DNA of 64,000 bases. It comes from Eledone cirrhosa. Lineage: Eukaryota. The notes beneath the pieces were generated by a model that did no database searches, was not told where the DNA came from, and worked only from the letters and a program-made list of their open reading frames with translations. The translations under genes and the position numbers were made by a program. The stretch is from the NCBI GenBank assembly GCA_964016885.1, contig OZ024753.1, positions 36,084,001 to 36,148,000 of the forward strand, read 5' to 3'. Below are positions 19,101-25,100 of this stretch, one piece after another (the stretch's first letter is position 1; every line of letters begins with the position of its first letter).

Positions 19101-22100
19101 ACTGGGCTTGATTCTTCCTCTATACCTCTTTCTCACTTACTTTTTTTTCACTCTCTCTCATTCTGGGGAAGAAGTCTTGCCATATTCAGACCTGGAGAGG
19201 TCATGGGCTCTGCCAGGTTTATGTCACCCCAGGAACTCCATCAGGAATTACAGGTCCATACATATTTATAATTAATGATAGATAAAAGTAAACTTTGAAC
19301 TTACAGCAATTTTTCTCATCAGCTTTATCACCACAGTCGTCATATCCATCACATATCCATGAATATCGAATACATTTCCCGCTCGGACATTTGAATTCAG
19401 TTCGTAAACATGTTCTGGATTCTTGTTATCAAAAATAAAATATATCAATATTGGAAGCATATCAATAAGAACAAATATATCGATTGTTCTCTAACTGAAA
19501 CAATTTGCTTTTACTATTTATATGCTTTGACGCATAGAGTTACAGCTCTTTCCATTCTAAGTTCAAATCCCGCCGAGGTTAACTTTGCCTCTCATCCTTA
19601 CGGGGTCGATAAAATAAAGTACCAGTAATGCACTGGGTAATTTCTGGCCTTGTGTCATAAGTAGAAATAACTATTTATATATTTCGGTTTATTTTTATTT
19701 CTACTTTGCAAGATACTTGATGTGAAATCATGTGTTGAAACAGATATTGTTATACTTTGGTAGGGTCATGCTTCATAATTAAAACACATGCACCAACTGA
19801 TTTTCACTTCAGTTTTTATTATTAATCAAGTAATTAGTCCATCCATCTATTGGTTAATTAACCAATTAGGTTAATTAAATAATTGTGTACATGTAAGTTC
19901 ATCTAGTACTAGTATTATGTTGAAATCGGTGGATTGGCAGTATCGGTAGAGGGTTGGACACCATGCTTTGCAGCAAAGAATTACGGCCCTTTATAGTCTG
20001 AGTTCAAATCCCGCCGAGGTTATCTTTGCCTTACGGGGTCGATAAAATAAAGCACCAGTAATATACTGATAATTGCTGGCCTTGTGCCAAAAGTAGAAAC
20101 AATTATTTATTTTGAGAACAATACCTTAACATCAGTATGAGTGGCTGGTTACAGCCGGTTTGAAAAGTATGTGGTGAGAGAATTCTGGCCAGTTATGGCC
20201 GGTTTAAATGCTAAAGGGTTAGGCTAACATAAATTCGAAATTTCTATAACTAATAACTAACCTGATGTACAGTTTACTTCATCTGAGTTATCGAGGCAAT
20301 TGTCAACCGAGTTACAAACACTGAAACGGGAGATACAGTGTTTGTTTTTACACTGAAACTTATGAGCTGGGCATGTTATTGGCGGTTCAAATTCGGTGTG
20401 ATTAATACATGTTCTTTGATCAATGTCCAACTTCATACCATAAGGACAACCACAATGACGACTCACGGGCATAGCGAAGCAGAAATGAGAACAGTCCCCA
20501 TTTCTCCGAATGCATAGATTTGTAGCTGAAAAACGGAAGGAAAGAAAAAAAAAAAACGACAATGATAGTGATTTACATATTCATTAGGGGGTTGAAAGGT
20601 AATAGTTCTAACTTCCTTTGTGGAAGGATTTTAAATGGTTGACATTAAGAAGAGGATCCCACCTTAGAAAACTAAGACAAAAGTAAAAAATAAATGAGAA
20701 TATGAGTAGGATGTTATCAGTTGACCAGCCAGGCCTCAGTAGATGGCAGCACACGCTAACCCATGTCAGCAGGATGTTGTCAGCTGACCAGTAGATGGCA
20801 GCACACGCTAACCAGTAGATGGCAGCACACGCTAACCCATGTCAGCAGGATGTTGGCAGCTGACCAGTAGATGGCAGCACACATAACCCATGTCAGCAGG
20901 ATGTTGTCAGCTGACCAGTAGATGGCAGCACACCTAACCCATGTCAGTAGGATGTTGTCAGCTGACCAGTAGATGGCAGCACACCTAACCCATGTCAGCA
21001 GGATGTTGTCAGCTGACCAGTAGATGGCAGCACACGCTAACCCATGTCAGCAGGATGTTGGCAGCTGACCAGTAGATGGCAGCACACATAACCCATGTCA
21101 GCAGGATGTTGTCAGCTGACCAGTAGATGGCAGCACACCTAACCCATGTCAGTAGGATGTTGTCAGCTGACCAGTAGATGGCAGCACACCTAACCCATGT
21201 CAGTAGGATGTTGTCAGCTGACCAGTAGATGGCAGCACACCTAACCCATGTCAGCAGGATGTTGTCAGCTGACCAGTAGATGGCAGCACACTTTACCCAT
21301 GTCAGCAGGATGTTGTCAGCTGACCAGTAGATGGCAGCACACCTAACCCATGTCAGCAGGATGTTGTCAGCTGACCAGTAGATGGCAGCACACCTAACCC
21401 ATGTCAGCAGGATGTTGTCAGCTGACCAGTAGATGGCAGCACACCTAACCCATGTCAGCAGGATGTTGTCAGCTGACCAGTAGATGGCAGCACACCTAAC
21501 CCATGTCAGCAGGATGTTGTCAGCTGACCAGTAGATGGCAGCACACCTAACCCATGTCAGTAGGATGTTGTCAGCTGACCAGTAGATGGCAGCACACCTA
21601 ACCCATGTCAGCAGGATGTTGTCAGCTGACCAGTAGATGGCAGCACACCTAACCCATGTCAGCAGGATGTTGTCAGCTGACCAGTAGATGGCAGCACACT
21701 TTACCCATGTCAGCAGGATGTTGTCAGCTGACCAGTAGATGGCAGCACACTTTACCCATGTCAGCAGGATGTTGGCAGCTGACCAGTAGATGGCAGCACA
21801 CCTAACCCATGTCAGCAGGATGTTGTCAGCTGACCAGTAGATGGCAGCACACCTAACCCATGTCAGCAGGATGTTGTCAGCTGACCAGTAGATGGCAGCA
21901 CACCTAACCCATGTCAGCAGGATGTTGGCAGCTGACCAGTAGATGGCAGCACACGCTAACCCATGTCAGCAGGATGTTGTCAGCTGACCAGTAGATGGCA
22001 GCACACCTAACCCATGTCAGCAGGATGTTGGCAGCTGACCAGTAGATGGCAGCACACGCTAACCCATGTCAGCAGGATGTTGTCAGCTGACCAGTAGATG

Positions 22101-25100
22101 GCAGCACACTTTACCCATGTCAGCAGGATGTTGTCAGCTGACCAGTAGATGGCAGCACACTTTACCAATGTCAGCAGGATGTTGTCAGCTGACCAGTAGA
22201 TGGCAGCACACCTAACCCATGTCAGCAGGATGTTGGCAGCTGACCAGTAGATGGCAGCACACGCTAACCCATGTCAGCAGGATGTTGTCAGCTGACCAGT
22301 AGATGGCAGCACACTTTACCCATGTCAGCAGGATGTTGTCAGCTGACCAGTAGATGGCAGCACACTTTACCCATGTCAGTAGGATGTTGTCAGCTGACCA
22401 GTAGATGGCAGCACACTTTACCCATGTCAGTAGGATGTTGTCAGCTGACCAGTAGATGGCAGCACACTTTACCCATGTCAGCAGGATGTTGTCAGCTGAC
22501 CAGTAGATGGCAGCACACTTTACCCATGTCAGTAGGATGTTGTCAGCTTACCAGTAGATGGCAGCACACCTAACCTATGTCAGCAGGATGTTGTCAGCTG
22601 ACCAGTAGATGGCAGCACACTTTACCCATGTCAGCAGGATGTTGTCAGCTGACCAGTAGATGGCAGCACACTTTACCCATGTCAGCAGGATGTTGTCAGC
22701 TGACCAGTAGATGGCAGCACACCTAACCCATGTCAGCAGGATGTTGGCAGCTGACCAGTAGATGGCAGCACACCTAACCCATGTCAGCAGGATGTTGTCA
22801 GCTGACCAGTAGATGGCAGCACACTTTACCCATGTCAGCAGGATGTTGTCAGCTGACCAGTAGATGGCAGCACACCTAACCCATGTCAGCAGGATGTTGT
22901 CAGCTGACCAGTAGATGGCAGCACACTTTACCCATGTCAGTAGGATGTTGTCAGCTGACCAGTAGATGGCAGCACACTTTACCCATGTCAGCAGGATGTT
23001 GTCAGCTGACCAGTAGATGGCAGCACACTTTACCCATGTCAGCAGGATGTTGTCAGCTGACCAGTAGATGGCAGCACACCTAACCCATGTCAGCAGGATG
23101 TTGTCAGCTGACCAGTAGATGGCAGCACACTTTACCCATGTCAGTAGGATGTTGTCAGCTGACCAGTAGATGGCAGCACACCTAACCCATGTCAGCAGGA
23201 TGTTGTCAGCTGACCAGTAGATGGCAGCACACCTAACCCATGTCAGCAGGATGTTGTCAGCTGACCAGTAGATGGCAGCACACTTTACCCATGTCAGCAG
23301 GATGTTGTCAGCTGACCAGTAGATGGCAGCACACTTTACCCATGTCAGCAGGATGTTGTCAGCTGACCAGTAGATGGCAGCACACTTTACCCATGTCAGC
23401 AGGATGTTGTCAGCTGACCAGTAGATGGCAGCACACCTAACCCATGTCAGCAGGATGTTGTCAGCTGACCAGTAGATGGCAGCACACTTTACCCATGTCA
23501 GTAGGATGTTGTCAGCTGACCAGTAGATGGCAGCACACTTTACCCATGTCAGCAGGATGTTGTCAGCTGACCAGTAGATGGCAGCACACCTAACCCATGT
23601 CAGCAGGATGTTGTCAGCTGACCAGTAGATGGCAGCACACTTTACCCATGTCAGTAGGATGTTGTCAGCTGACCAGTAGATGGCAGCACACTTTACCCAT
23701 GTCAGCAGGATGTTGTCAGCTGACCAGTAGATGGCAGCACACCTAACCCATGTCAGCAGGATGTTGTCAGCTGACCAGTAGATGGCAGCACACTTTACCC
23801 ATGTCAGCAGGATGTTGTCAGCTGACCAGTAGATGGCAGCACACCTAACCCATGTCAGCAGGATGTTGTCAGCTGACCAGTAGATGGCAGCACACCTAAA
23901 ACATGTCAGTATGGAAAATAGATGATGGCAATGGTGATAATAATGACAACGATGGTGACGGTGATGACAACGATGATGATGATGATGATGGCAACTATGA
24001 TGACAACGGTGATGACAACGATGATGACAACTGTGATGACAACTGTGATGACAACTATGATGACAACTGTGATGACAACTGTGATGACAACTGTGATGAC
24101 AACTGTGATGACAACTGTGATGACAATGGTGATGACAACTGTGATGACAACTGTGATGACAACTGTGATGACAACGGTGATGACAACGGTGATGACAACT
24201 GTGATGACAACTGTGATGACAATGGTGATGACAACGGTGATGACAACTGTGATGACAACGGTGATGACAACGGTGATGACAACTGTGATGACAACTATGA
24301 TGACAATGGTGATGACAATGGTGATGACAATGGTGATGACAACGGTGATGACAACGGTGATGACAACGGTGATGACAACGGTGATGACAACGGTGATGAC
24401 AACTGTGATGACAACGGTGATGACAACTGTGATGACAACGGTGATGACAACGGTGATGACAACGGTGATGACAACTGTGATGACAACGGTGATGACAATG
24501 GTGATGACAACGGTGATGACAACTGTGATGACAACTATGATGACAATGGTGATGACAATGGTGATGACAATGGTGATGACAACGGTGATGACAACGGTGA
24601 TGACAACTGTGATGACAACTGTGATGACAACGGTGATGACAATGGTGATGACAACGGTGATGACAACTGTGATGACAACGGTGATGACAACGGTGATGAC
24701 AACGGTGATGACAACTGTGATGACAACTATGATGACAATGGTGATGACAATGGTGATGACAACGGTGATGACAACGGTGATGACAATGGTGATGACAACG
24801 GTGATGACAACGGTGATGACAACTGTGATGACAACTGTGATGACAACTATGATGACAACGATGATGACAACGGTGATGACAACGGTGATGACAACGGTGA
24901 TGACAACTGTGATGACAACGGTGATGACAACTGTGATGACAACGGTGATGACAATGGTGATGACAACGGTGATGACAACTGTGATGACAACGGTGATGAC
25001 AACGGTGATGACAACTGTGATGACAACTGTGATGACAACTATGATGACAACTGTGATGACAACGGTGATGACAACTGTGATGACAACGGTGATGACAATG

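What the first reader, a model, noticed from the sequence alone, without database searches (positions are those of the whole stretch)
20706..23910. About 62 tandem, same-orientation CTCF motifs in an intronic 51-bp minisatellite
Seen: essentially every unit carries TGACCAGTAGATGGCAGCA almost invariant, while variation falls mostly elsewhere (cctaaccc/ctttaccc, gcagg/gtagg, ttgtc/ttggc). An E-box CAGCTG overlaps it. Established: this fits the 19-bp CTCF consensus TGRCCASYAGRKGGCRSYR at every position, CTCF is conserved across bilaterians, and mammalian DXZ4/FIRRE arrays are CTCF-rich architectural anchors. Inference: a possible loop anchor or insulator array, or a Pol II roadblock just upstream (in transcript direction) of exon 20262-20525. 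The motif has no CpG, so binding would be methylation-independent.
Basis: partly seen in the sequence, partly recalled or inferred. Interest (0 to 1): 0.75.

Follow-up and report, generated by a model that had tools for sequence, protein, structure and literature searches.

The report
LINE-born minisatellite of CTCF motifs
An intron of a megalin-like gene, likely from an octopus relative, holds about 60 head-to-tail, same-direction matches to the motif of the genome-folding protein CTCF; the repeat likely grew from a dead retrotransposon's tail end and shows no clear sign of selection, so it is likely a by-product, though it would offer a simple test of how CTCF works in molluscs.

Summary
The array is real: 63 units at 20706-23910, with 60 identical 19-mers on the + strand. 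It lies in a 9.8-kb intron (93.5% tandem repeat) of a minus-strand LRP2/megalin-like gene, likely octopod. The motif is strong (21.6 bits on a recalled JASPAR matrix; chance about 1-3 per million units) but lacks the upstream module.

The array sits inside a decayed LINE 3' end. Its left edge unit aligns to other copies of that element and carries 11 extra bases that split the motif, so the strong site was likely made by a microhomology deletion and then copied. The neighbouring 60-bp array and two 48-bp arrays also match this element.

Protection of the motif is not significant (1 vs 8 alleles, p about 0.1). Only one organism's runs held the sequence, and about one such array per octopod-sized genome is expected by chance. 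Binding is plausible but untested; an anchor or roadblock role is unsupported. CTCF minisatellites are known (mouse DXPas34), and this scan noted a similar 11-copy array in a chimaera-like fish. Verdict: new member of a known kind, usable as a natural test of CTCF polarity in molluscs.

The parts
20262..20525 (-). Coding exon (264 nt, phase 1-1, EGF + LDL-receptor class A repeat) of an LRP2/megalin-like gene
   Evidence: Pfam PF00057, PF14670, PF24468; highest identity 68% over the full length to an Octopus sinensis LRP2-like protein; acceptor and length
20526..30352 (-). Host intron, 9,827 nt, 93.5% in three tandem arrays
   Evidence: collinear exons by tblastn of P0007; donor and acceptor
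20628..20699 (+). Decayed 3' UTR of an endonuclease-RT-PHD LINE, the part upstream of the array
   Evidence: nhmmer hit 20636-20772, E=0.0016; pairwise alignments; many dispersed contigs fit 20633-20682 with unlike flanks
20700..20769 (+). Left edge unit (63-nt period), likely the ancestral form; 11 extra nt at 20729-20739 between CAG microhomologies; weaker site at 20733-20751 (10.5 bits)
   Evidence: aligns to element copies, 0 of 300 and 0 of 100 shuffles reach its score; alignment A1; score
20785..23892 (+). 62 strong CTCF-type cores (60 identical) at 51/52-bp spacing, with one 24-nt partial duplication at 20785-20808
23893..23930 (+). Right edge: the unit runs into a sequence resembling the LINE terminus and the start of its tail
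   Evidence: alignment A1; weak alone: 11 of 300 shuffles reach its score
23931..26263 (+). 12-bp array, likely an expanded LINE tail
   Evidence: TRF; unit resembles the tail start of 5 of 5 element copies printed; judged by eye, no statistic
26353..30083 (-). Second, opposite-facing LINE 3' end (26353-26475) and the 60-bp array grown from the same region of it; no CTCF-like site
   Evidence: nhmmer E=9e-19 for the end and E 4e-5 to 4e-3 per unit; 0 of 100 shuffles; no site above 8 bits
30353..30488 (-). Preceding coding exon of the host gene (5' limit approximate)
   Evidence: tblastn; donor

Best explanation
This is a 51-bp intronic minisatellite with 60 identical strong CTCF-type motifs that likely arose inside the decayed 3' end of a LINE retrotransposon, likely gained its strong motif through an 11-nt deletion, and was likely multiplied passively by ordinary minisatellite turnover, so it would bind CTCF as a by-product rather than as a selected anchor. 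Steps: (1) a LINE 3' end lies here (shown by alignment); (2) drift gave it a middling CTCF-like site (score shown, drift inferred); (3) a ~63-nt segment was duplicated at a short AGTA microhomology and lost 11 nt between CAG repeats, joining TGACCAG to TAGATGG (both forms shown, order inferred from element copies that keep the longer form); (4) slippage or unequal exchange spread and homogenised the unit (inferred from repeated blocks of variants); (5) CTCF would occupy some sites (predicted, untested); (6) no effect on the gene is needed to explain the array.
For: The edge unit plus 5' flank align to the window's LINE 3' ends (nhmmer E=0.0016; 0/300 and 0/100 shuffles), and dispersed contigs confirm the flank is a repeat family. 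Element copies keep bases where array units have an 11-nt gap. None of 12 element copies has a site above 7.1 bits, and no dispersed contig was laid over the motif, so the motif was likely not imported ready-made. The element is an EN-RT-PHD LINE. It also seeded the 60-bp array and both 48-bp arrays (0/100 shuffles each); with the 51-bp array that is 4 of the window's 8 long-unit arrays. Variation inside the motif is not significantly low (p=0.096-0.20), and the 60- and 66-bp arrays have runs of 19 and 22 nt free of recurrent variants. Chance per unit is 2-4 in 1.5 million, or 0.4-1.7 per genome of 2.5-5 Gb (size recalled, density from this window only). Listed holders came from one organism. 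TE-derived minisatellites are common: 23% in human (PMC3389668 abstract).
Against: Interior units alone do not align to the element better than shuffles (30/300, 44/100), the right edge is weak (11/300), and the isolated left-edge fragment gave no nhmmer hit; the link rests on the edge unit plus flank. The motif's 3' half differs much from the element copies, so its path is not traced. A one-in-a-million match is striking at a single locus. The edge unit already has 15 of 19 consensus positions (0.4-0.7% chance per unit at that score), so a real weak site may have existed first. The trend in variation (1 vs 8) leans towards protection. No orthologous intron from another species was seen.
Confidence: 0.6

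Rival explanations
1. Same origin, but the motif is never used: the array is closed or heterochromatic chromatin, or this animal's CTCF prefers another sequence, so the match is a pure coincidence.
For: About one such array per genome is expected by chance. Upstream module absent (3/9 and 1/9). Only 15/20 against the HOMER string, and one non-array site in the window does as well. The core motif is not listed as enriched at O. bimaculoides loop anchors.
Against: The site scores above about 85% of sites sampled from the recalled matrix. A CTCF motif was the most abundant in annelid open chromatin (PMC10658182 passage). 60 copies raise the chance that some are bound.
Confidence: 0.17
2. One reading: a selected or co-opted insulator or loop anchor of the DXZ4/DXPas34 type. 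The forward motifs face the gene's promoter side and would stop cohesin arriving from there.
For: Strong motif, common polarity; Dxz4 polarity sets contact direction in mouse (PMC6985041 passage). CTCF-like motifs are enriched at squid TAD borders (PMC9023564) and 1.27-fold at cuttlefish loop anchors (997 vs 782). Variation trend 1 vs 8. A like array was noted by this scan in a chimaera-like fish (unchecked).
Against: The hallmark of DXZ4, conservation confined to the motif at a conserved position across species (PMC3491370), is not shown. The array is one of three repeats in a repeat-filled intron. Orientation-dependent CTCF action is not established outside vertebrates (PMC13317027, PMC10658182 passages).
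Confidence: 0.13
3. CTCF binding itself favours expansion: once the deletion made a strong site, bound CTCF and cohesin stalled replication or transcription and raised the local slippage rate, a feedback without selection.
For: The expanded unit is the strong-site form, while the weak-site form stayed single. CTCF/cohesin sites are reported prone to replication-linked damage (PMC12860730, search listing only).
Against: The adjacent 60-bp array reached 61 copies with no motif, so no special driver is needed.
Confidence: 0.06
4. A Pol II roadblock that tunes splicing of exon 20262-20525 or of the preceding exon.
For: The exon is 264 nt and phase-symmetric, so it could be skipped in frame; the array starts 175 nt from its acceptor. 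CTCF sites are also reported enriched upstream of alternative exons.
Against: The roadblock model acts on exons in or up to about 1 kb upstream of the bound site; here that exon is 6.5 kb away. The acceptor has a long pyrimidine tract. No evidence of skipping was seen.
Confidence: 0.04

Closest known systems
Mouse DXPas34 minisatellite (Tsix)
   Same: Short monomer (34 bp) with one CTCF site per monomer; possibly born from a mobile element (PMC3149622 passages).
   Different: DXPas34 is CpG-rich, tied to X-inactivation control and conserved among rodents. This array is CpG-poor (o/e 0.03), deep in a coding gene's intron, with no shown conservation or function.
DXZ4/Dxz4, FIRRE, ICCE macrosatellites
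   Same: Tandem CTCF motifs of one polarity; FIRRE and ICCE lie inside transcribed genes (PMC6985041 passages).
   Different: DXZ4 units are about 3 kb (PMC3218863 listing), with paired YY1 sites, a methylation switch and conservation confined to the motif across mammals. Here the unit is 51 bp, the motif has no CpG, and no such conservation is shown.
Transposon-derived minisatellites
   Same: Local tandem duplication of part of an element, then expansion (PMC3389668 abstract); other arrays in this window match the same LINE end.
   Different: Here the amplified unit carries a strong transcription-factor motif absent from the parent element's other copies.
Retroelement-spread CTCF sites (rodent B2 SINE; recalled, a related title seen)
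   Same: A CTCF motif in retroelement-derived DNA.
   Different: B2 spreads a ready-made motif by transposition; here the motif likely formed in one dead copy and spread by tandem amplification.

Membership tests
CTCF binding site | Core motif read by fingers 3-7 | tested here: met
   21.6 of 26.1 bits, p about 3e-8, on a recalled MA0139.1 matrix; 15/20 against the published HOMER string and 10/14 against the CCNNNAGGGGGCGC core
CTCF binding site | Upstream module (optional; a subset of sites) | tested here: not met
   3 of 9 and 1 of 9 letters at the two spacings (consensus)
CTCF binding site | The organism has CTCF with conserved base-contacting fingers | not tested
   CTCF reported in E. 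scolopes and other molluscs; no CTCF sequence of this organism was available
CTCF binding site | Occupied in vivo | not testable with these tools
   no run listed is on record as a chromatin assay
DXZ4/FIRRE/ICCE-type architectural repeat | Kilobase-scale unit with CpG-island character and methylation switch | tested here: not met
   51-bp unit, CpG o/e 0.03
DXZ4/FIRRE/ICCE-type architectural repeat | CTCF motifs of common polarity | tested here: met
   63 of 63 on the + strand; automatic for a tandem array
DXZ4/FIRRE/ICCE-type architectural repeat | Sequence conservation confined to the motif | tested here: inconclusive
   within the array 1 vs 8 alleles, p=0.096; no cross-species copy available
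DXZ4/FIRRE/ICCE-type architectural repeat | Conserved position across species | tested here: inconclusive
DXZ4/FIRRE/ICCE-type architectural repeat | Boundary, stripe or superloop in Hi-C | not testable with these tools
   none
DXPas34-type CTCF minisatellite | Short monomer with one CTCF site each | tested here: met
   (motif only; binding untested)
DXPas34-type CTCF minisatellite | CpG-rich, next to a promoter | tested here: not met
   CpG o/e 0.03; inside a coding intron many exons into the gene
Transposon-derived minisatellite | Array embedded in, and homologous to, part of a transposable element | tested here: met
   edge unit and flank: E=0.0016, 0/300 and 0/100 shuffles; interior units not significant alone
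Transposon-derived minisatellite | Length variation between individuals (VNTR) | tested here: inconclusive
   the two RAD runs laid gave no reads on the array

The most novel reading that the evidence does not exclude
A CTCF super-site born de novo: one 11-nt deletion in a dead LINE tail created a top-strength motif, and minisatellite turnover copied it 60 times in one orientation. It is now a bound, one-way barrier to cohesin inside an octopod megalin-like gene. This would give new anchors a route by tandem amplification in repeat-rich cephalopod genomes, and its Hi-C stripe direction would show whether mollusc CTCF blocks loop extrusion with vertebrate-like polarity.
Probability: 0.15. Interest if true: 0.7.

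Novelty: new member of a known kind. Interest (0 to 1): 0.36.

Why it matters
As it stands it is a clear worked example of a strong regulatory motif likely being created and amplified inside retrotransposon debris, and a caution that same-orientation motif arrays in minisatellites are one event, not sixty. Its use is as a test site. Whether CTCF acts with polarity outside vertebrates is described as open, and 60 strong same-strand motifs in 3.2 kb with mappable flanks give a sharp prediction: an insulation step and a stripe towards higher coordinates if vertebrate rules hold, nothing if they do not.

Tried and rejected
Assembly artefact: rejected. Motif imported by a LINE subfamily: not supported, within the limits of one laid stretch at 80% likeness. 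Hairpin or cruciform driver: rejected; four units fold less stably than 200 of 200 shuffles as single-stranded DNA. Known RNA family: no Rfam match in 19500-31000. Coding role of the array: its minus-strand ORFs are repeat read-through, and the exon chain of P0007 skips the region. Exact 23-mer in metagenome contigs: 0 matches. No RNA holder listed. RAD runs X4 and X5 gave 2 and 1 partial reads, none on the array: no information on length variation. No whole genome is held, so the genome-wide control could not be run. A paper search for the matrix numbers found nothing, so the matrix stays recalled. The scan's earlier notes held no look-alike sequence and nothing for this genome. The 66-, 55-, 17- and 16-bp arrays did not align to the LINE end (84, 46, 28 and 55 of 100 shuffles).
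Full report
OBSERVATION. The array is there as described. Splitting on the motif gives 63 cores between 20733 and 23892, all on the + strand, spaced 51 (55 times), 52 (6) or 24 (1). Logan contigs of two runs of one sample hold an 81-nt contig that loops back 51 bases, at depth 546 and 457 against 8.25 and 3.83 for the contig of the unique flank. The ratios (66 and 119) are of the order of the assembled copy number, but the tool warns that such depth is no copy number. 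I take it only as showing that the array is real and not hugely multiplied elsewhere.

HOW GOOD IS THE MOTIF. No matrix could be fetched, so I used JASPAR MA0139.1 counts from memory; their column sums fall smoothly from 913 to 908, a sanity check only. The site scores 21.6 of 26.1 bits (p about 3e-8), above about 85% of sites sampled from the matrix; nothing outside the array exceeds 9.3 bits. Against strings taken from papers it looks plainer: 15 of 20 letters of the HOMER consensus (one non-array site does as well) and 10 of 14 of the core quoted in PMC10287918. The upstream module is absent. The chance that one 51-bp unit holds so good a site is 2 in 1.5 million (unit shuffles), 4 in 1.5 million (decayed LINE end plus deletion) and 0 in 300,000 (window 51-mers). 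The window has 8 arrays with a period of 16 or more and at least 5 copies. Scaled to 2.5-5 Gb (recalled range; one window's density), that predicts 0.4-1.7 such arrays per genome. The match is remarkable for a locus and unremarkable for a genome scan.

HOST GENE. Exon 20262-20525 encodes an EGF and an LDL-receptor class A repeat. Of 38 hits, the highest identity over the full length is 68% to an Octopus sinensis LRP2-like protein, whose exons map in order along the minus strand at about 42-69% identity. The gene is LRP2/megalin-like and the animal likely an octopod; ortholog or paralog is unsettled. The intron runs 20526-30352, and 93.5% of it is three arrays: 51-bp, 12-bp and 60-bp.

ORIGIN. 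A 10-mer of the unit recurs around the window as part of the 3' end of a dispersed element with a (GAT)n tail. Two copies follow ORF remnants related to endonuclease-RT-PHD proteins, so it is a LINE 3' UTR. A profile built from 11 copies hits 20636-20772 (E=0.0016). The edge unit aligns to a copy better than 300 of 300 and 100 of 100 shuffles, and the alignment extends about 70 nt upstream. In the reads, many unrelated contigs fit 20633-20682 with different flanks, while over the motif only the flank contig and the unit contig lie (17 contigs laid per run, not all shown). The edge unit has 11 bases (20729-20739) that interior units lack and element copies keep. They sit between CAG repeats and split the motif, which scores 10.5 bits there; none of 12 element copies exceeds 7.1 bits. 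So the strong site is likely derived: 5 of 53 possible 11-nt deletions reach 21.6 bits, four of them the same microhomology event. The right edge and the 12-bp array resemble the element's terminus and tail. The 60-bp array and both 48-bp arrays match the same element (0 of 100 shuffles each); the 66-, 55-, 17- and 16-bp arrays do not. Against this reading: interior units alone are not significant (30/300, 44/100), the right edge is weak (11/300), the isolated left-edge fragment gave no nhmmer hit, and the motif's 3' half is well drifted from the element.

SELECTION. Among 58 interior units there is 1 derived allele inside the 19-mer and 8 outside (binomial p=0.096; 0.14-0.20 if linked changes are merged). 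The 60- and 66-bp arrays have stretches of 19 and 22 nt without recurrent variants, against 26 here. Of public runs, 3 hold words of 20600-21300, all from one organism and one study.

MECHANISM. Best reading (0.6): LINE debris, a chance middling site, duplication plus deletion giving a strong site, passive amplification, and probable but functionally unneeded CTCF binding. Rivals: never bound (0.17), selected anchor (0.13), binding-driven expansion (0.06), splicing roadblock (0.04). The roadblock model concerns sites in or within about 1 kb downstream of the exon, which does not fit here, though that review also notes enrichment upstream of alternative exons. By the vertebrate convention (recalled), the forward motifs face the promoter side of this minus-strand gene; either orientation had an even chance.

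WHAT IS KNOWN. Cephalopods have CTCF and cohesin genes and a CTCF-like motif at squid TAD borders, without known directionality. In the coleoid loop study the core motif is 1.27-fold enriched at cuttlefish anchors; for O. bimaculoides only the upstream-module motif is listed (467 vs 409) in the supplement as held. One PDF of that supplement could not be searched. Echinoderm boundaries show no orientation pattern. Mammalian precedents are DXPas34 and DXZ4/FIRRE/ICCE. This array resembles them in carrying polar CTCF motifs but fails the DXZ4 tests of unit size and CpG character, and is not filed there. Papers seen: passages of PMC13652810 (plus supplement rows), PMC9023564 (plus supplement passages), PMC10658181, PMC10658182, PMC13317027, PMC10287918, PMC6985041, PMC8373115, PMC3491370 and PMC3149622; abstract of PMC3389668; search listing only for PMC3218863 and PMC12860730. 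Searches listed no paper whose title or abstract start describes a CTCF-motif minisatellite in a cephalopod; the library lacks most subscription papers.

VERDICT. Observation confirmed; interpretation partly supported. New member of a known kind (transposon-derived minisatellite with a CTCF motif). Interest 0.36. The bold case, a de novo bound polar barrier that tests CTCF polarity in molluscs, has probability 0.15 and would deserve 0.7.

Noticed in passing
window 26435-30083, 44017-44353, 51107-51674: The 60-bp array and both 48-bp arrays match parts of the same LINE 3' UTR (0 of 100 shuffles each); this element looks like a recurrent minisatellite seed in this genome.
   Followed up: partly
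window 20628-30083: Two LINE 3' ends lie tail to tail, each with its own ~60-copy array and a 12-bp array between them, together filling 93.5% of the intron.
   Followed up: partly
window 38120-41181: The 55-bp array abuts the tail of another minus-strand LINE end (41066-41181), though its unit does not align to the element.
   Followed up: no
window 20754-22262: All 7 CpGs of the array are in the 52-bp or partial units, which resemble the edge unit; the commoner 51-bp units have lost that G.
   Followed up: no
window 11252-12088 (+): Two consecutive ORFs split by a stop look like a Tc1/mariner transposase remnant (recognised from memory; the first had no Pfam hit, the second was not scanned).
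   Followed up: no
window 8507-9034 (+) and 57108-57425 (-): LINE ORF remnants, the first with a PHD finger after the RT region, related to EN-RT-PHD proteins.
   Followed up: partly
window 20383, 20674, 20724: Run X2's flank contig differs from the window at three places, one in the edge unit; possibly the other allele, but depth is under 5.
   Followed up: no
window 1059-49430 (-): The LRP2-like gene's exons are only about 42-69% identical to the O. sinensis protein P0007, suggesting a paralog or a distant octopod.
   Followed up: no
window 19545-19660 and 19925-20100: Two similar short dispersed repeats just downstream of the exon look like octopus SINEs (recalled, not tested).
   Followed up: no
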